Source: a phage
Sequence record: PZ452605.1
Strand: one strand, 5' to 3'
DNA: 50,828 nt
Shown: positions 6,190-48,251 of the stretch, piece after piece
Position numbering within the stretch: position 1 is the first letter of the stretch
Layout: each line of letters begins with the position of its first letter
The notes under the pieces: model-generated
Told to the model about the DNA's origin: nothing
Database searches by the model: none
Seen by the model: the letters and a program-made list of their open reading frames with translations, nothing else
Program-made: the position numbers and the translations under genes

Positions 6190-6209
6190 CGTTTAACAAA
6201 AAGTGCTAT
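6190..6209 (-). repeat. intergenic motif copy, inverted relative to flanking genes
   Basis: GTTTAACAAAAAGTGCTAT upstream of capsid gene hairpin and RBS. Confidence 0.55.
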
Positions 6210-10653: not shown

Positions 10654-13335
10654 ATGGCTGAAAAATACGCTAGCCTAACGCTAGGCGTTGACGTGTCGCA
10701 GGTCAACAATGCTGTTAAATCATTGCAGCAATTCAAGAAGGCAAACGACGACGCAAAAAAAAGCGTTAATGAATTTGTTGATTCTGAGGTTGTGGCGCGA
10801 CAGCAAGCAAAACAGTTTGCCGAAGAACTGGCGCGCCAGAAAGCAGAATTTAAGAAAATCCAGGAGTCAATTGATCCCACCGCGTCAAAGATGGATAAGC
10901 TGCGAAAGGCAGCGACACAGCTTGATGCGCTATGGAAAAAGGGCATTGTTCCTGATGAGACTTTTTTTGAGCTTGGGGCAATTCTTGAGACACAGCAAAA
11001 CAAGCTGATCGCAACCAAAAAAGCGATGACAGAGGAAGGACGCGCGGCACTTGAGGAATCAAAGAACAAAGCGCGTGCAGCGGAAGAGGCTAAAAAATTC
11101 GTCCAGGCTTTGCGTGAGCAGGAAGAAGCAGCCGGAAAAAGCAAGTCTGAATTGCTGGAAATGAAAGCGGCACAGCTTGGTGTTAGCCAGGAGGCAGCGC
11201 CTTACATCGCAAGGCTGAAAGAGCAGGAAAAGCAGATCCAAAAACTTGGAATTTCTACGGGTCAATACAAACAAGCAATGGCGCAATTGCCAATGCAGAT
11301 CACAGACGTGGTGACTTCACTTGCTTCTGGAATGCCTGTTTGGTTGGTCGCAATCCAGCAGGGCGGACAGATTAAGGATTCTTTTGGTGGCGCATCCAAT
11401 GCTTTAAAAGCGTTGCTATCTTTCCTGAATCCGGCAAACGTGGCGTTTGGCTTACTTTCAGGCACGCTGGCAATTGCTGCATATAATGCCTACAAAACAC
11501 AGACAGAGTTTGAGGCAATTAAAAAAACCGTTCAGGAAACAACTGGCTTGACTGGTGATTTTGCCGAAAAGATTGCTACCGGAATACAGGAGCTTTCCGA
11601 CAAGACAGGCGAAAGCGCCGAAGATCTTGCAAAGGCTTACATCACCACGAAAGACGGCGCGAGCGAGGCGATTAAAAAACTTGTTGACGTTGGCATGACT
11701 TATGATGACGCAAAAAAGAAAGTCAACGAGTACAAGGGCGCGTCTAGCTTTGTCAGCTTGAATAACGAAATTGCAAACCACAAAAACAAAGTCCTTGAGT
11801 TGGGCGATTCGTGGTATGAGGTTTTGAAAGCGAAGCGTGATTACGCTTCCCCGTCCGGCGGCCTGTTAGGTAAGGAGCTTGGCTATGTTAACCCTATGCT
11901 TAAGTTTGCACTTAACACTTATGAAGACATTGGAAAGGTCGTAAAAGATGCGAATAAGGACATGGCGGAACGAGCGGAAAGGATCGACAAAGAAAACCTG
12001 GCCTTAAACAGAGTGCGCGCAGCACAGGAGGCTTTAAACAAAGCCATTGAGGATCAGAAAAATGTGGCGCGTTCGGCTGATGAAGAACTGAAAAAGCGCG
12101 CGGCTGAAAACGTGGAGTTTAGGCGCAAAGAGCTTGAGGAAATCAAGAAGCAGGAGCAGAAAAAGAAAGAGGCTAAAGGTGGAATAGTTCGCGGCCCGAC
12201 TGAGCAGCTTGATAAAGAGTTGTACGTTTTAAAAGCGCAACTGGAGATGCTTAAAGAGCATCGCACTGTTAACGATGTTATTTCTCGCCAGCGTAAATCA
12301 TTATGGAGTATCGAAAAGCAGATCGAGATCCTGGAGGATGCGCAGAGCAAGCGTAAATTGACCGGAGCGGAACAGGCGCTACTAAACGAGCAAAAAGCCG
12401 TTCTTGAAATGGCAAGGCAAAAAGCGGAGCTAGGGGATCAGATTGTTTTACAGGAGCGCAAAAACAAGCTGGAGCAAGATAGCATTAAGTTTATCCGTGA
12501 AACTCAGGCGGCTATTGATGTGCTTGGCCTTAAGCAACTTGGCTACACTGAAAAGCAGATCGAGCGTGAGCTAGAGTTGCGCAAGCTGCGCACCGACTAC
12601 GAGGCGCAAGGCGGAAGCGTTAGCGATGAAGTTTTTCAGCAAATGGAGGCGAAACTTAAGCAGTATTATCAGACACAGGATGAGGTTCAAGGCAACTGGT
12701 TGGCAGGAGCAAAAAACGCATGGGAGATGTTCGCGGAAGATGCAAACAATGCCTATGGCAATGTTCAGCAGATCGCAAGCGAGGCGTTAAACGGCCTTAC
12801 AAACCAATTAGCGAATTTTATCGCTACTGGCAAGGCAAACTTTAAAGACTTCTCGACGGCTATCATCAAAATGATTATTCAGATGATCACGAAAATGGTC
12901 GTCTTTAATGCGTTATCTGGCCTGATGGGTGGTCAAACCTGGACGATGGGGAGCTTGCTTAAGAATATTGGCGGATTTGCTGGCGGTGGATACACTGGAG
13001 ACGGCGGGAAGTATGAGCCAGCCGGAATTGTCCATAAAGGTGAATTTGTCATGACGAAGGAGGCGACGCAGCGTATCGGGGTAGGAAACTTGTACCGCAT
13101 GATGCGAGGCTATGCTAACGGTGGCGCGGTTGGTAGTTCCGGCTATACTGGCGGTGGAGCTGTCACTGGTGGAGCGCCTCAATTTAACATTGGGGGGATT
13201 GATGTTAGCATCACTAACGGAAACGATCCGAAGGGCATCGAAACTGGTGTTAAGATGATTTTTACTGATATGATTAAACGTTCCTGTATGCAGGGCGGCG
13301 AGGTTTACGAATTTGTTATGAGCAAGCGAGGTTGA
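10654..13335 (+). CDS. tail tape measure protein
   Basis: 893 aa, long alpha-helical K/E/A/Q-rich protein with Gly-rich C-terminal part; after G/GT. Confidence 0.85.
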   Translation: MAEKYASLTLGVDVSQVNNAVKSLQQFKKANDDAKKSVNEFVDSEVVARQQAKQFAEELARQKAEFKKIQESIDPTASKMDKLRKAATQLDALWKKGIVPDETFFELGAILETQQNKLIATKKAMTEEGRAALEESKNKARAAEEAKKFVQALREQEEAAGKSKSELLEMKAAQLGVSQEAAPYIARLKEQEKQIQKLGISTGQYKQAMAQLPMQITDVVTSLASGMPVWLVAIQQGGQIKDSFGGASNALKALLSFLNPANVAFGLLSGTLAIAAYNAYKTQTEFEAIKKTVQETTGLTGDFAEKIATGIQELSDKTGESAEDLAKAYITTKDGASEAIKKLVDVGMTYDDAKKKVNEYKGASSFVSLNNEIANHKNKVLELGDSWYEVLKAKRDYASPSGGLLGKELGYVNPMLKFALNTYEDIGKVVKDANKDMAERAERIDKENLALNRVRAAQEALNKAIEDQKNVARSADEELKKRAAENVEFRRKELEEIKKQEQKKKEAKGGIVRGPTEQLDKELYVLKAQLEMLKEHRTVNDVISRQRKSLWSIEKQIEILEDAQSKRKLTGAEQALLNEQKAVLEMARQKAELGDQIVLQERKNKLEQDSIKFIRETQAAIDVLGLKQLGYTEKQIERELELRKLRTDYEAQGGSVSDEVFQQMEAKLKQYYQTQDEVQGNWLAGAKNAWEMFAEDANNAYGNVQQIASEALNGLTNQLANFIATGKANFKDFSTAIIKMIIQMITKMVVFNALSGLMGGQTWTMGSLLKNIGGFAGGGYTGDGGKYEPAGIVHKGEFVMTKEATQRIGVGNLYRMMRGYANGGAVGSSGYTGGGAVTGGAPQFNIGGIDVSITNGNDPKGIETGVKMIFTDMIKRSCMQGGEVYEFVMSKRG

Positions 13336-30402: not shown

Positions 30403-30821
30403 TGGCTATAACTGATAAAGGAGATTATCTTGAGTTTTACGAAAGAGATCCAACCGACACGAGAAAGGAAGTTAATCACCAGATAGATAGCTTTCAGTGG
30501 TTGACTTATGCTCATCCTTATTTGCTAGCGTGGCATACGGTAAACGAGAATGAGAAGTCGAAAGTAACTGCGATGATTGATCAGCAGTCCGGCTTGGTTA
30601 AGGGGGTAAGCGATTTCATCATCCTGATTGGTTCAAACGGAAAATACCCCTTTGCAGCGATTGAGATCAAACGAGTGAATAAATCAGGCAAGGGGAAAGC
30701 ATCACCAGTCAGCGATGAACAAAAGGCTTTTTTGCGTCGCGTTCGCAGCTTAGGAGGATTCGCTGCGGTCGCCTACGGATTTAATCAGTTTAAGTTAGCT
30801 ATTGAATACATGCTTAAATAG
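30402..30821 (+). CDS. VRR-NUC domain nuclease
   Basis: 139 aa; GVSDFIIL ... AIEIKR PD-(D/E)XK-like core; ATG overlaps helicase stop. Confidence 0.55.
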   Translation: MAITDKGDYLEFYERDPTDTRKEVNHQIDSFQWLTYAHPYLLAWHTVNENEKSKVTAMIDQQSGLVKGVSDFIILIGSNGKYPFAAIEIKRVNKSGKGKASPVSDEQKAFLRRVRSLGGFAAVAYGFNQFKLAIEYMLK

Positions 30822-30837
30822 CACTTTTTGTTAAAAC
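30818..30837 (+). repeat. intergenic motif copy, co-directional
   Basis: exact ATAGCACTTTTTGTTAAAAC containing stop TAG of VRR-NUC gene. Confidence 0.65.
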
Positions 30838-31889: not shown

Positions 31890-31908
31890 TAGCACTTTTT
31901 GTTAAAAC
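31889..31908 (+). repeat. intergenic motif copy, co-directional
   Basis: exact 20-mer directly after stop TAA; followed by hairpin, CATAAT and CATCGAAACGAAC. Confidence 0.65.
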
Positions 31909-31964
31909 GCCCGGCATTTTGTCGGGCATAATTATTTCATCGAAACGAACGTGAGGAAATGAAA

Positions 31965-37919: not shown

Positions 37920-37965
37920 ATCTCCTTTGTTTGTTCGATGTGATTATGCCAGGTTTTACACCTGG

Positions 37966-41243: not shown

Positions 41244-41302
41244 TTACTATCTCCTGAGCGGTTCGTTTCGATGGGATAACTATACCAGGTTATCCCGATC
41301 AG

Positions 41303-41322
41303 CTTTTAACAAAAAGTGCTAT
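41303..41322 (-). repeat. intergenic motif copy, co-directional (minus)
   Basis: ATAGCACTTTTTGTTAAAAG right after stop TAA. Confidence 0.65.
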
Positions 41323-42323: not shown

Positions 42324-42788
42324 ATGGAACAGAAAACCACTAAGGACTATTGCGATTGGCTTCGCGAGCTTGGTCGCCGCCTGGCTAGTGGAGATATTGA
42401 AGAGTATAAAATGTCACTAATTGACCTTGCCGGAATGTTAAGCGGTGACGACTGCTACAAGATCACGCGCAGTTCATCCTACAGCCGGACCATTATCAAC
42501 CGCGTTCCAGAAGTAAGGGCCGCAGGTCGGGTAAGTATCAAGGTCGAGGAAACGGAAGATGATAAATTTTACGTTTTCCGCATGGTCCGCGAATCGAAAA
42601 GGAAAATCATCACACCCGAAGAATTGCCAGCCATCAAGGCAAGGGCGATCAAAAAGTTTGCCGATCGCTTGCTGGCAGCAATCCCGAATATCGTTGACCT
42701 GGAAGGGGATAAACTGGCTGGAGCTTGTGAGGGCGTAAGCCGCTACCAGGATATGATCCGCGAAATCATCAAAGAGGAAGAGCAATGA
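42324..42788 (+). CDS. hypothetical protein, first gene of early rightward cluster
   Basis: 154 aa from ATG with GGAGG RBS. Confidence 0.45.
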   Translation: MEQKTTKDYCDWLRELGRRLASGDIEEYKMSLIDLAGMLSGDDCYKITRSSSYSRTIINRVPEVRAAGRVSIKVEETEDDKFYVFRMVRESKRKIITPEELPAIKARAIKKFADRLLAAIPNIVDLEGDKLAGACEGVSRYQDMIREIIKEEEQ

Positions 42789-43057
42789 AAAAGGCATTAA
42801 TCAGCGTTTTGGCGGCAATGGCATTCCTGACCGGATGCAAAGAAGATGGCGCGCATGTTGGCAATGTGCAGATGGCTAACCCTGGCGATGACTACAGCGT
42901 AAGGGAGCTATTCACCGCTGACGGTTGCACAGTTTACCGATTCTATGACGATCGCACTGTTTACTTCACCAACTGCAAGGGAACGACTAGCTGGGAAGTG
43001 TCGAAAAGCAATGGCAAAGGCACGAAGACAGAACATATGACCGTCGAAACAAAATAG
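42785..43057 (+). CDS. small lipoprotein (second)
   Basis: 90 aa; signal peptide with lipobox LTGC; two further Cys in mature part. Confidence 0.55.
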   Translation: MKKALISVLAAMAFLTGCKEDGAHVGNVQMANPGDDYSVRELFTADGCTVYRFYDDRTVYFTNCKGTTSWEVSKSNGKGTKTEHMTVETK

Positions 43058-43073
43058 CACTTTTTGTTAAAAC
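43054..43073 (+). repeat. intergenic motif copy, co-directional
   Basis: exact 20-mer containing stop TAG of lipoprotein gene; precedes candidate structured RNA. Confidence 0.65.
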
Positions 43074-43106
43074 TCAAAAGCGATAACCAGGCATAATACA
43101 CACATA

Positions 43107-43262
43107 GACGGGCGGCAAGGATTGCTGCGGGAGAGGAGTAACGCAGGGGCTTGATCGAAGTGTCAGGATTCCCAACCGTGAGGCCAGAACTATCACACTA
43201 GCCACCAGGCAGAACGCTAGATAGGTCACTGAGCTGAGGCTACCGACGAAGTGAAGCCCGTC
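43107..43262 (+). ncRNA. candidate structured RNA / structured 5' leader
   Basis: 155-nt GC-rich ORF-free segment; 7-bp closing helix GACGGGC/GCCCGTC; internal hairpins CTGCG...CGCAG and GCAA-GGA-TTGC. Confidence 0.3.
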
Positions 43263-43299
43263 ACAAAAGATTAAACGATTATTTATGTGAAAGGGGTTA

Positions 43300-43482
43300 A
43301 TGATGGATAAGATCATCAAAATGAGCGAAGTCAAGCCGGGAATGATGGTTAAGTTTGCTGGCAAATATCGCCTAGTGCTGGATAACTGCCGCAAAGAGAA
43401 CATTCTTACCATTCGTGTAAATGGCAAGGCGCAGCTATTCGCCCCTAACGCAGATATTGACGTTGAAGTTAGAATTAAGTAA
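43300..43482 (+). CDS. hypothetical protein
   Basis: 60-aa ORF with GGGG RBS. Confidence 0.35.
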   Translation: MMDKIIKMSEVKPGMMVKFAGKYRLVLDNCRKENILTIRVNGKAQLFAPNADIDVEVRIK

Positions 43483-43497
43483 TTAGGAGGAAACACC

Positions 43498-44411: not shown

Positions 44412-44464
44412 TCAAATGTGGGGCCAGGTATAATGGCCTCACTTTCAACGAAGGAGATAAAACG

Positions 44465-48176: not shown

Positions 48177-48195
48177 TAGCACTTTTTGTTAAAAC
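48176..48195 (+). repeat. intergenic motif copy, co-directional
   Basis: exact 20-mer after stop TAA; followed by hairpin AAGGGCA...TGCCCTT. Confidence 0.65.
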
Positions 48196-48251
48196 TTCCG
48201 CAAGGGCATTTGGTAAAGTGCCCTTATTGAAGCGAAACAGAGGAAAGCGCA

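What the first reader, a model, noticed from the sequence alone, without database searches (positions are those of the whole stretch)
43074..43299. ORF-free GC-rich segment with closing helix: candidate structured RNA
Between the lipoprotein gene and the next gene lies about 225 bp with no plus-strand ORF, unusual in this tightly packed genome. It is GC-rich relative to neighbouring intergenic DNA. A 7-bp helix GACGGGC (43107-43113) / GCCCGTC (43256-43262) can close about 155 nt containing further hairpins. It sits right after a motif copy with a CATAAT 19 nt downstream, so it is probably transcribed. The only ORF across it is antisense, low-complexity and overlaps real plus-strand genes.
Basis: partly seen in the sequence, partly recalled or inferred. 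Interest (0 to 1): 0.65.

Follow-up and report, generated by a model that had tools for sequence, protein, structure and literature searches.

The report
New structured leader RNA in coliphages
The gene-free stretch encodes a real, about 155-base folded RNA at the very start of an early phage transcript; at least ten unrelated groups of enterobacterial phages share it, no curated RNA family matches it, and its function is still unknown.

Summary
Window 43107-43262 (+) encodes a structured RNA.

On this one sequence there is no signal. A 7-bp helix occurs in 47% of shuffles, and the folding z-score is -0.29. The evidence is comparative.

- **Spread.** The core is 75-83% identical in otherwise unrelated phage groups: Warwickvirus and other Drexlerviridae, Dhillonvirus, Sortsnevirus, Jilinvirus, Murrayvirus, and the MQ-4/Arya, Bas97 and BUCT618 types.
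- **Position.** It is always intergenic and on the same strand as the downstream genes. It sits a few bases after a sigma70-type promoter and usually 21-30 nt before the next start codon.
- **Structure.** In 40 distinct sequences, 93.9% of cells pair, against 31-43% in slid controls. 29 of 46 pairs show compensatory double changes. The fold is a closing helix, a hairpin with an invariant AGGA loop, a purine-rich internal loop and a three-way junction.
- **Absences.** There is no Rfam match, no conserved ORF, and no copy in E. coli genomes, plasmids or HK022.

The genes that follow it are unrelated, and sibling phages lack it, so it is a portable accessory module.

Mechanism is unresolved. I favour a cis-acting 5' leader that works through a host macromolecule (about 0.5). 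The main rivals are a released trans-acting RNA and a riboswitch.

The parts
43056..43071 (+). Promoter-associated motif AGCACTTTTTGTTAAA, the early-promoter signature of this T1-like phage
   Evidence: There are 19 copies (up to 3 mismatches) in the window against 1.08 expected. Each is followed about 20-22 nt later by a -10-like hexamer and then a gene on the same strand. The same or a similar motif precedes the element in KMI8, Motto and Lumpael.
43092..43097 (+). -10-like hexamer CATAAT. The predicted transcription start is about 43102-43104, which is 3-5 nt before P1.
   Evidence: Read from the sequence. A -10 hexamer (TATAGT, TATCAT, TAATAT, TATTAT or CATAAT) sits at the same distance from the element in all lineages, several with a TTGACA or TTGCAA -35 at 17-18 nt. 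The start site is inferred, not measured.
43107..43262 (+). The structured RNA element, about 156 nt. The covariance-model match spans 43105-43264.
   Evidence: The CM R1 match scores 202.8 bits and is the only copy in the window. There are 40 distinct homologues at E of 1e-20 or better. 93.9% of cells pair, and 29 of 46 pairs have double changes. RNAalifold recovers 38 pairs.
43107..43113 (+). P1, 5' strand (GACGGGC). It pairs with 43256-43262 (GCCCGTC).
   Evidence: Helix 1: all 7 pairs show changes on both sides, and 88.7% of cells pair.
43114..43126 (+). P2 hairpin (GGCA / UGCU) with loop AGGAU at 43118-43122
   Evidence: The stem covaries: GGCA/UGCU, GC/GC, UGC/GCA and GCUAUA/UAUAGC in L173. 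The AGGA of the loop is invariant.
43127..43139 (+). P1b (GC, pairs with GU at 43251-43252), the 5' half of the purine-rich internal loop (GGGAGA, 43129-43134), and the P3 5' strand (GGAGU, 43135-43139)
   Evidence: The P1b pair occurs as G-C 19, A-U 14, G-U 4 and U-A 1. The middle pair of P3 occurs as A-U 23 and G-C 17. Loop bases GGAGAGG are invariant.
43141..43179 (+). Arm A of the three-way junction: ACG/CGU, a CA/AAC internal loop, GGGG/UCCC, and CUUGAU/GUCAGG with loop CGAAGU
   Evidence: Helices 5 and 6. The arm is mostly invariant, with 3 compensatory pairs (KMI8 G-C to A-U, L173 C-G to U-A, Lumpael). The block TCAGGATTCCCAACCGTGA is invariant except in a few divergent lineages (KMI8, PHB17, Lumpael, L173).
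43182..43235 (+). Arm B: GGcCAG/CUGaGCU; CUAUC/GAUAG (43190-43194 with 43219-43223); an internal loop ACA / AACGCUA; and the terminal hairpin CUaGCC-ACCA-GGCAG (43198-43212)
   Evidence: Helices 7-9. Helix 8 is 100% paired, with 3-5 standard pair types per position. The terminal stem alternates GCC/GGC, CCG/CGG, CCC/GGG and CUC/GAG. Loop bases CACU and GAACGC are invariant.
43238..43252 (+). P3 3' strand (GGCUACC), the 3' half of the internal loop (GACGAA, 43245-43250), and the P1b 3' strand
   Evidence: AGGCYACCGACGAAG is nearly invariant.
43256..43262 (+). P1, 3' strand (GCCCGTC)
   Evidence: See P1 above.
43263..43299 (+). A/C/U-rich linker containing the Shine-Dalgarno sequence (AGGGG, 43292-43296). 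No terminator.
   Evidence: In other lineages the linker is CA-rich. The start codon follows the element by 21-30 nt in 16 of 21 contexts. No intrinsic terminator lies between the element and the ORF.
43300..43482 (+). First downstream ORF, 60 aa (probably starting at ATG 43303), phrog_8121, function unknown. It is not part of the RNA but is the gene led by it in this phage.
   Evidence: Homologues occur in about 140 Klebsiella Webervirus phages, and in Jk06, without the element upstream.

Best explanation
Window 43107-43262 (+) encodes a previously unclassified structured RNA of about 155 nt. It forms the extreme 5' leader of an early transcript made by host sigma70 RNA polymerase.

Transcription is predicted to start 3-5 nt before helix P1. 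P1 clamps the 5' and 3' ends of the element together. Inside lie a hairpin with an invariant AGGA loop, a conserved purine-rich internal loop and a three-way junction with two arms.

I think it most likely acts in cis as a portable expression leader. In this reading the 5'-terminal P1 clamp shields the transcript end. The invariant core then docks a conserved host macromolecule: the transcribing RNA polymerase (as HK022 put RNA does), or the ribosome, or an RNA-binding regulator. That would secure or tune expression of whatever accessory early genes follow. The open, CA-rich linker leaves the ribosome-binding site accessible.

- **Shown:** the conservation, the fold, the strand, the position relative to promoter and start codon, the absence of coding potential, and the modular, accessory distribution.
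- **Inferred:** transcription itself, the exact 5' end, action in cis, and the identity of the partner.
For: **Conservation across unrelated genera.** The core is 75-83% identical. CM hits reach E = 1e-20 to 1e-49 in 40 distinct sequences.

**Fold.** 93.9% of cells pair, against 31-43% when partners are slid. 29 pairs have double changes, against 5-11 in the slid controls. The covariation score is 0.476, against about 0.04. RNAalifold on the same model-fitted alignment predicts 38 pairs, 21 of them compensatory. RNAalifold also finds P3, P1b and the arm-B hairpin on a plain MAFFT alignment that was not fitted to the model.

**Strand.** Invariant G-U and U-G pairs (51-72, 53-68, 57-64) would be A-C mismatches on the other strand.

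**Position.** The -10 hexamer lies 6-9 nt upstream in every lineage, often directly after an intrinsic terminator. No terminator lies between the element and the next ORF. The element is on the same strand as the downstream gene in every context examined. The start codon follows by 21-30 nt in 16 of 21 contexts. The ribosome-binding region is largely unpaired in predicted ensembles, with mean unpaired probability 0.36-0.81.

**Modularity.** The first downstream proteins belong to different PHROGs of unknown function. ORF60 homologues are expressed from the same promoter type without the element in other Drexlerviridae. Sibling Warwickviruses keep only a P1-like 5' hairpin plus linker.

**Architectural precedent.** putL of HK022 also begins at +3 of its transcript and works without phage proteins (PMC9378689).
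Against: - No transcript data were available, so transcription, the 5' end and processing are inferred.
- No expression platform or alternative pairing with the ribosome-binding site is conserved, so how a cis effect would be transmitted is unknown.
- A simple 5' hairpin would be enough for end protection, so stabilisation does not explain about 85 invariant bases.
- Only one of about 19 motif-promoter units in this phage has the element. The others have short unstructured leaders, and sibling phages lack it. It is therefore not needed for early expression in general.
- Short distances to the next start codon are normal in compact phage genomes, so the spacing argument is weak.
- Unrelated downstream genes fit a trans-acting RNA equally well.
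Confidence: 0.5

Rival explanations
1. It is a trans-acting non-coding RNA. The element is the real cargo. It is released from the 5' end of the mRNA by cleavage in the A/U- or CA-rich linker. It then acts on a host target, for example as a decoy or inhibitor of a host regulator, ribonuclease or anti-phage defence protein.
For: - The core sequence is extremely conserved, independent of the unrelated downstream genes.
- Its distribution is accessory, sporadic and horizontally exchanged.
- There is a single copy per genome.
- The fold is compact, with both ends clamped in P1, as in many stable small RNAs.
- It occurs only in phage genomes, never in E. coli chromosomes or plasmids.
- The invariant AGGA hairpin loop resembles a CsrA-type binding site (the resemblance is from my own knowledge).
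Against: - No terminator or other conserved 3'-end signal follows the element.
- It is always fused to the leader of a gene on the same strand.
- No processing site is demonstrated.
- The second GGA, in arm A, is lost in L173, which weakens the CsrA-sponge version.
Confidence: 0.25
2. It is a processive antiterminator RNA with a new architecture. This is a specific version of the cis model. The nascent element would bind the elongating host RNA polymerase, as HK022 put RNA does. The polymerase would then resist pausing and resist intrinsic or Rho-dependent termination across the early operon.
For: - The element starts at about +3 to +5 of the transcript, like putL.
- It needs no partner protein gene and is independent of downstream gene identity.
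- In Dhillonvirus a GC-rich terminator lies 470-680 nt downstream. It directly abuts the ribosome-binding site of the next gene on the same strand, with no good promoter between. A second terminator lies about 3.2-3.5 kb downstream, ahead of the DNA polymerase gene.
Against: - In L027 the unit ends at a bidirectional terminator followed by convergent genes. In L017 the terminator is followed by its own promoter.
- This window has no intrinsic terminator for about 7 kb and has several internal promoters.
- The element is dispensable in sibling phages.
- The size and fold differ from put: 155 nt with nested junctions against about 70 nt with two stem-loops.
- The CM finds nothing in HK022 (best 8.6 bits, E about 1).
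Confidence: 0.2
3. It is a riboswitch. The three-way-junction core would bind a small molecule or ion that reports host state, and so tune expression of the downstream early genes.
For: - It is a complex aptamer-like fold, with invariant bases concentrated in junctions and internal loops.
- It sits consistently in the 5' UTR.
Against: - No known class matches, even at E of 10 or less.
- There is no terminator/antiterminator and no conserved structure that sequesters the ribosome-binding site.
- The downstream genes are functionally unrelated proteins of unknown function.
Confidence: 0.1
4. It is not a functional RNA. The segment would be a decayed or unrecognised protein-coding gene (for example the 158-aa antisense ORF or a small + strand ORF), a DNA-level site, or a chance helix in spacer DNA.
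For: - GenBank records annotate hypothetical CDSs over it: MatMar on the - strand, PT1 on the - strand, and Bas97_0052 on the + strand.
- The single-sequence fold is no better than shuffles.
Against: - No frame is open in all lineages, and Motto has stops in all six frames.
- The substitutions are compensatory in helices rather than showing codon-like periodicity, and include strand-specific G-U pairs.
- 75-83% identity across otherwise unrelated genomes rules out neutral spacer.
Confidence: 0.02

Closest known systems
HK022 put RNA (putL/putR), a cis-acting antiterminator RNA that binds RNA polymerase
   Same: Both are phage-encoded, protein-independent structured RNAs placed immediately after an early sigma70 promoter; the putL fold begins at +3. 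Both head an early operon of an enterobacterial siphovirus, and both are independent of the identity of the downstream genes.
   Different: put is about 70 nt with two stem-loops in a V shape, one containing a triplex. This element is about 155 nt with two nested three-way junctions. There is no sequence or structure homology: the CM search of the whole HK022 genome gave a best hit of 8.6 bits. put occurs twice per genome in temperate lambdoid phages. This element occurs once, mostly in virulent phages, and can be lost. Several contexts (L017, L027, this window) have no terminator that would need bypassing.
Riboswitch aptamers and orphan riboswitch candidates (three-way-junction class)
   Same: Both sit in a 5' UTR, have a closing P1 helix and a multi-helix junction, concentrate invariant bases in junctions and loops, and show strong covariation.
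   Different: There is no match to any Rfam family, no expression platform and no coherent set of regulated genes.
5'-terminal stabiliser hairpins (such as the ompA 5' stem-loop) and leaders bound at the 5' end by CsrA (such as flhDC). Both comparisons are from my own knowledge.
   Same: A helix within a few nucleotides of the 5' end, followed by an open leader and a strong ribosome-binding site. There is a hairpin loop with an invariant AGGA, the core of the CsrA recognition motif. Sibling phages keep only the 5' hairpin.
   Different: Those elements are simple hairpins. Here about 120 nt of conserved tertiary-looking structure is added. The second GGA is not universally conserved (L173), and several ribosome-binding sites lack GGA.
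Large or ornate phage-associated orphan RNAs in Rfam (GOLLD, ROOL, HEARO and others), and anonymous candidates in viral structured-RNA catalogues (PMC10690425)
   Same: Both are conserved structured RNAs carried by phages with no known function.
   Different: There is no Rfam hit. This element is much smaller, is promoter-proximal, and is restricted to enterobacterial siphophage-sized genomes. I could not check whether it appears anonymously in the 2023 catalogue, because no supplementary files were held.

Membership tests
Any Rfam 15 family | Covariance-model score at or above the family's gathering threshold | tested here: not met
   There were no matches in the whole window at gathering thresholds. 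In E-value mode on 42950-43400 the only hit was a chance snoRNA match on the - strand (12.7 bits, E = 7.9).
HK022 put RNA | Promoter-proximal position in the nascent early transcript | tested here: met
   A -10 hexamer lies 6-9 nt before the element in all lineages, so P1 starts at about +3 to +6. The putL fold starts at +3. The start site here is predicted, not mapped.
HK022 put RNA | About 70 nt, two stem-loops, homologous in sequence to putL/putR | tested here: not met
   The element is about 155 nt with two nested three-way junctions. The CM search of the full HK022 genome with filters off gave a best hit of 8.6 bits, E about 1, outside the PL/PR region.
HK022 put RNA | Terminators inside the operon that must be read through | tested here: inconclusive
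   This holds in Dhillonvirus. It does not hold in L017 or L027, or in this window.
HK022 put RNA | Antitermination that depends on the RNA polymerase beta-prime zinc-binding domain | not testable with these tools
   This needs in vivo or in vitro transcription assays.
Riboswitch | Conserved, covarying aptamer in a 5' UTR | tested here: met
Riboswitch | Expression platform: a terminator/antiterminator or an alternative structure that sequesters the ribosome-binding site | tested here: not met
   No terminator lies between the element and the ORF. The ribosome-binding region is mostly unpaired, and no conserved alternative pairing was found.
Riboswitch | Association with genes of a coherent pathway | tested here: not met
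   The first downstream proteins fall in different PHROGs of unknown function, with no Pfam domain.
Riboswitch | Specific ligand binding | not testable with these tools
   This needs in-line probing, ITC or similar.
Independent trans-acting small RNA gene | Own promoter and own terminator or defined 3' end | tested here: inconclusive
   A promoter is present. There is no intrinsic terminator or conserved 3' signal. Release by processing cannot be assessed here.
CsrA-binding leader or sponge | At least two GGA motifs in single-stranded or loop context, typically with one at the ribosome-binding site | tested here: inconclusive
   The P2 loop AGGA is invariant even where the stem is completely replaced (L173). 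The arm-A GGA is lost in L173, and several ribosome-binding sites lack GGA. Binding was not tested.
Protein-coding gene (either strand) | A reading frame kept open across homologues | tested here: not met
   Stop counts per frame differ between lineages. The window has at least 3 stops in every + frame, and Motto has stops in all six frames.
tRNA or tmRNA | Cloverleaf detected by ARAGORN | tested here: not met
   ARAGORN found no genes in the window.

The most novel reading that the evidence does not exclude
The element may be an RNA-only host-takeover device of a new structural class, traded horizontally as a promoter-plus-RNA cassette among unrelated virulent enterobacterial phages. It would be one of two things. 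The first is a put-like modifier of host RNA polymerase with an entirely different fold. The second is a decoy or inhibitor RNA aimed at a conserved enterobacterial regulator, ribonuclease or anti-phage defence protein.
Probability: 0.3. Interest if true: 0.85.

Novelty: new variant of a known kind. Interest (0 to 1): 0.66.

Why it matters
Structured RNAs with this much covariation support and this many invariant bases usually have a specific molecular partner. This one sits in T1-like and HK578-like coliphages, including members of the BASEL collection, which grow on E. coli K-12. Every hypothesis can therefore be tested directly with reporters, phage deletions and pull-downs.

If it acts on RNA polymerase, it would be only the second protein-independent phage antiterminator fold known. 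If it acts in trans, it would add to the very short list of phage RNAs that manipulate host proteins. Even as a plain expression leader, it is a compact, portable, host-polymerase-driven module that could be useful for phage and synthetic-biology constructs.

It also corrects spurious "hypothetical protein" annotations in several GenBank phage records.

Tried and rejected
1. **Single-sequence thermodynamics.** The MFE z-scores are about 0 on both strands, so this gave no information.

2. **15-mer scan of IMG/VR.** The pattern GAGGCNACCGACGAAG returned 120 loci. The 118 that were listed and searched with the CM gave no real hit, only one borderline match at E = 0.15 in L142, so they look like chance matches. 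That scan was wasted.

3. **Search for distant relatives.**
   - A two-anchor pattern was run on metagenome contigs (18 loci, 15 real) and on GTDB genomes (2 loci, 1 real: a 42.7-kb phage-sized contig in a "Cereibacter" MAG).
   - A second anchor pair on IMG/VR returned only the same family.
   - No remote homologues were found, so the family looks narrow.

4. **Host or plasmid origin.** There is no match in 5,426 E. coli genomes or in PLSDB.

5. **Homology to HK022 put.** Rejected.

6. **Partnership with ORF60.** Rejected. ORF60 homologues occur in about 140 Klebsiella phages, and in Jk06, without the element.

7. **A general 5' hairpin on all early leaders of this phage.** Rejected. The other motif-promoters have short unstructured leaders of the ATCGAAACGAAC type.

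8. **Extra tertiary or pseudoknot pairs by exhaustive column-pair covariation.**
   - Most signals were two-state phylogenetic artefacts.
   - Only columns 54-102 looked suggestive (U-A 22, G-C 15, U-C 3), and that is not convincing.
   - A loop-loop pairing AGUGU/ACACU is contradicted by the G-to-A variant, which instead strengthens the local stem.

9. **boxA-like or epsilon-like motifs in the linker.** I saw partial resemblances only, and none is conserved.

10. **Literature.** Searches by sequence string and by topic found no description of this RNA.

Full report
**What the window is**

The window is a T1-like phage of the genus Warwickvirus (Drexlerviridae, Tempevirinae). It is about 98% identical to JLBYU07, XY3, tunus and swan01.

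The finding lies between a DUF4884 lipoprotein gene (42785-43057) and a 60-aa ORF (43300-43482). It sits in a run of small early genes, all on the + strand.

**Checking the observation**

- There is no + strand ORF of 30 aa or more, and every + frame of the element has at least 3 stops.
- GC is 0.57 against 0.44 in the flanks.
- GACGGGC is at 43107-43113 and GCCCGTC at 43256-43262.
- The repeated motif AGCACTTTTTGTTAAA is at 43056-43071, followed by CATAAT at 43092-43097.
- An antisense ORF of 158 aa overlaps real + strand genes.

On this sequence alone nothing exceeds chance.
- 47% of dinucleotide shuffles of the region contain a perfect 7-bp inverted repeat.
- The MFE z-score is -0.29 on the + strand and +0.03 on the - strand.
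- Rfam finds nothing, either at gathering thresholds over the whole window or in E-value mode on the region.

**Comparative evidence**

A sensitive blastn search with the 245-nt spacer gave the key result. The central 125-160 nt is 75-83% identical in phages that share no other nucleotide similarity with the window. These include Serratia phage MQ-4, Salmonella phage PT1 (Jilinvirus), Escherichia phage sortkaff (Sortsnevirus) and well over a hundred Dhillonvirus genomes.

Further searches added more lineages:
- Enterobacter phage Arya and Klebsiella phages KA2-1 and IME279
- Salmonella phage Lumpael (Murrayvirus)
- HeidiAbel_Bas97 and Alux-21
- BUCT618
- other Drexlerviridae: KMI8, PHB17 and Motto
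- IMG/VR and metagenome contigs of 30-52 kb

The element is absent from 5,426 complete E. coli genomes, from PLSDB plasmids and from phage HK022. The only hit in GTDB genomes is a phage-sized contig in a MAG. About 170 of the 50,697 phage records hold it.

Within the Warwickvirus-like phages it is sporadic. 253 records match the neighbourhood, but only about 21 carry the full element.

**Anatomy of the locus**

In every context examined the element is intergenic and on the same strand as the genes that follow.

Upstream sequences show a -10 hexamer ending 6-9 nt before the element. Several have a TTGACA or TTGCAA -35 at 17-18 nt. In several lineages an intrinsic terminator directly precedes that promoter. 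The predicted transcript therefore begins 3-5 nt before helix P1, and the element is the extreme 5' end of an mRNA.

Downstream there is no terminator. There is a short CA-rich or A/U-rich linker, a strong ribosome-binding site and a start codon. The start codon follows by 21-30 nt in 16 of 21 contexts. The ribosome-binding region is mostly unpaired in predicted ensembles.

**The fold**

I derived a structure by eye from the alignments and wrote it on the window sequence. Its parts are:
- P1 (43107-13 with 43256-62)
- P2 hairpin (43114-26) with loop AGGAU
- a two-pair P1b
- a symmetric purine-rich internal loop (GGAGAG / GACGAA)
- P3 (GGAGU / GCUaCC)
- a three-way junction bearing arm A (43141-79) and arm B (43182-235)

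A covariance model built from the three near-identical Warwickvirus sequences found one copy in the window at 202.8 bits. It found 40 distinct homologues at E = 1e-20 to 1e-49.

On the resulting alignment:
- 93.9% of cells form standard pairs, against 31-43% when the 3' partners are slid by 1-3 columns.
- 29 of 46 pairs show changes on both sides, against 5-11 in the slid controls.
- The covariation score is 0.476, against about 0.04.
- No shuffle out of 500 reaches the observed values.

Helix 8 (CUAUC/GAUAG in the window) is 100% paired, with 3-5 standard pair types per position.

That alignment was fitted to the model, which biases it toward the structure. Two checks bear on this. RNAalifold on the same alignment predicts 38 of the pairs, 21 of them with compensatory changes. 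RNAalifold on a plain MAFFT alignment already finds P3, P1b and the arm-B hairpin with A-U to G-C and C-G to G-C exchanges.

The most divergent member (L173) replaces both the P1 and P2 stems completely, yet keeps the AGGA loop.

Invariant G-U pairs would be A-C on the opposite strand, so the + strand is the functional one. No reading frame is conserved on either strand. The antisense ORF, and the CDSs annotated over the element in some GenBank records, are therefore spurious.

**What bears on function**

*The genes that follow are unrelated.* They are proteins of 28-313 aa from different PHROGs of unknown function, with no Pfam domain.

*The element and ORF60 are independent modules.* ORF60 homologues sit behind the same kind of promoter without the element in about 140 Klebsiella Webervirus genomes and in Jk06.

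*The element can be lost.* Warwickviruses such as tuinn have, at the same place, the promoter, a 7-bp hairpin with the P1 sequence of the MQ-4 type, a CA-rich linker and the next gene. This reads as an internal-deletion derivative.

*It is an exception within this phage.* The window has 19 copies of the promoter motif, and the other units have short unstructured leaders.

*Terminator context is mixed.*
- In Dhillonvirus a GC-rich terminator lies 470-680 nt downstream. It abuts the ribosome-binding site of the next gene with no good promoter between, and a second terminator follows about 3 kb on.
- In L017 the terminator is followed by its own promoter. In L027 the unit ends at a bidirectional terminator facing convergent genes.
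- In this window there is no intrinsic terminator for about 7 kb.

**Interpretation**

The shown facts are these: a portable, accessory cassette of promoter plus structured leader, about 85 invariant bases concentrated in loops and junctions, and restriction to phages of Enterobacterales. They point to recognition of a conserved host macromolecule or ligand.

I favour action in cis (confidence about 0.5). The reasons are the invariable fusion to the 5' end of an mRNA, the lack of any 3'-end signal, the retained P1 hairpin in deletion derivatives, and the open leader downstream.

Within the cis model there are two versions:
- **Put-like modification of the elongating polymerase (about 0.2).** It is attractive because HK022 putL also starts at +3 and needs no phage protein (PMC9378689), and because of the Dhillonvirus terminators. 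The L017, L027 and window contexts, and the element's dispensability, argue against it.
- **Stabilisation or translational docking (about 0.25).** It explains P1 and the linker but not the elaborate core.

The rival models are:
- **A released trans-acting RNA, such as a decoy or inhibitor (about 0.25).** It fits the conservation and the accessory distribution but lacks a defined 3' end.
- **A riboswitch (about 0.1).** There is no expression platform and no coherent regulon.
- **Coding sequence or chance (about 0.02).**

**Comparison with known systems**

It works most like put RNA or an orphan 5'-UTR motif, but it is a member of neither. It differs from put in size and fold, the model finds nothing in HK022, and no Rfam family matches.

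I could find no description in the literature held here. I could not check whether it appears anonymously in a 2023 catalogue of viral structured-RNA candidates, because no supplementary files were held.

I therefore rate it a new RNA family within a known general kind: promoter-proximal structured phage RNAs.

**Verdict**

This is a real feature, correctly spotted. It is well supported as a structured RNA (confidence above 0.95). Its mechanism is open.

Interest is 0.66. The fold is unusually well supported and complex. It sits in phages that grow on E. coli K-12, so it is readily testable. The more novel readings remain possible.

Noticed in passing
window, 19 sites, e.g. 6192-6207(-), 30820-30835(+), 41305-41320(-), 43056-43071(+), 48178-48193(+): The motif AGCACTTTTTGTTAAA occurs 19 times against 1.08 expected. 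Each copy is followed after about 20-22 nt by a -10-like hexamer, then usually a short A/C-rich leader (consensus ATCGAAACGAAC) and a gene on the same strand. TTGTTA lies 21-22 nt from the -10, which is too far for an ordinary sigma70 -35. The motif may therefore be an activator or UP-like site that defines the early promoters of T1-like phages.
   Followed up: partly
window, e.g. 41275-41300(-), 48195-48220(+), 37935-37965(-), 31908-31930(+), 44412-44435(+): Many of these motif-promoters carry a different inverted repeat spanning the spacer, the -10 and the start site. Examples are GGGATAAC...GTTATCCC, AAGGGCA...TGCCCTT, GCCAGG...CCTGGC and CCCGGC...GTCGGG. The promoter in front of the RNA element has none. 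Their purpose is unknown; they might be operators or 5' hairpins.
   Followed up: no
L003 (phage tuinn) about 1858-1953; the same locus as window 43058-43497: Sibling Warwickviruses that lack the element keep CACATAGGGCGGCACGGCGTCGCCCACAAAACCAATCAGGAG. This is a P1-only 5' hairpin whose sequence matches the MQ-4-type element, not the type in this window. It is followed by a CA-rich linker and the 297-aa gene. This implies at least two independent acquisitions or exchanges of the element at this locus, followed by an internal deletion.
   Followed up: partly
L002 (phage XY3) 1213-1720: XY3, tunus and ExeQuayColi have two extra small genes, with their own motif-promoter, inserted between the lipoprotein gene and the element. 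This locus is a hotspot for gain and loss of cassettes.
   Followed up: no
L004 1868-2110(-); L006 1990-2196(-); L169 2545-2664(+); L167 1819-2577(+); Sodalis phage SO-1 gp46: Several GenBank records annotate hypothetical proteins (in PHB17's RefSeq copy, a 'DNA methyltransferase') across the RNA element. These look like annotation artefacts.
   Followed up: partly
hits: Some records carrying this coliphage-type sequence are labelled with unlikely hosts: 19 'Campylobacter phage' records, 'Pseudomonas phage Motto', 'Acinetobacter phage NJ01' and a 'Cereibacter sphaeroides' MAG contig of 42.7 kb. These are probably host mis-assignment or contamination. The 88.6-kb record P-GXEC-L2P5 has three matching places and may be a concatenated assembly.
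   Followed up: no
L008 (phage jat) 2747-2790; L015 6347-6300(-): In Dhillonvirus a 7-bp all-GC intrinsic terminator is followed immediately by the ribosome-binding site of the next gene, with its U-tract running into AGAGGA. This heads a recombination and replication operon with no recognisable promoter after the terminator, so those genes depend on read-through.
   Followed up: partly
L020 (Enterobacter phage Arya type) about 11075-11200: Directly after the terminator that ends the element's transcription unit there is a cluster of repeated GGTCACC/GTCACC words, followed by a TATATAAT box. These look like iterons or operators.
   Followed up: no
L179 (Klebsiella phage Roth72) 1195-1380: A homologue of the window's 60-aa ORF (phrog_8121, unknown function) is annotated there as 'anti-RM protein stp1'. 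I did not check the basis of that name.
   Followed up: no
alignment A7 columns 54 and 102 (window about 43152 and 43195): There is a possible tertiary contact between the third base of the arm-A stem and the first base of the conserved ACACU loop of arm B: U-A in 22 sequences, G-C in 15 (Dhillonvirus and, independently, Lumpael) and U-C in 3. This is too weak to call.
   Followed up: partly
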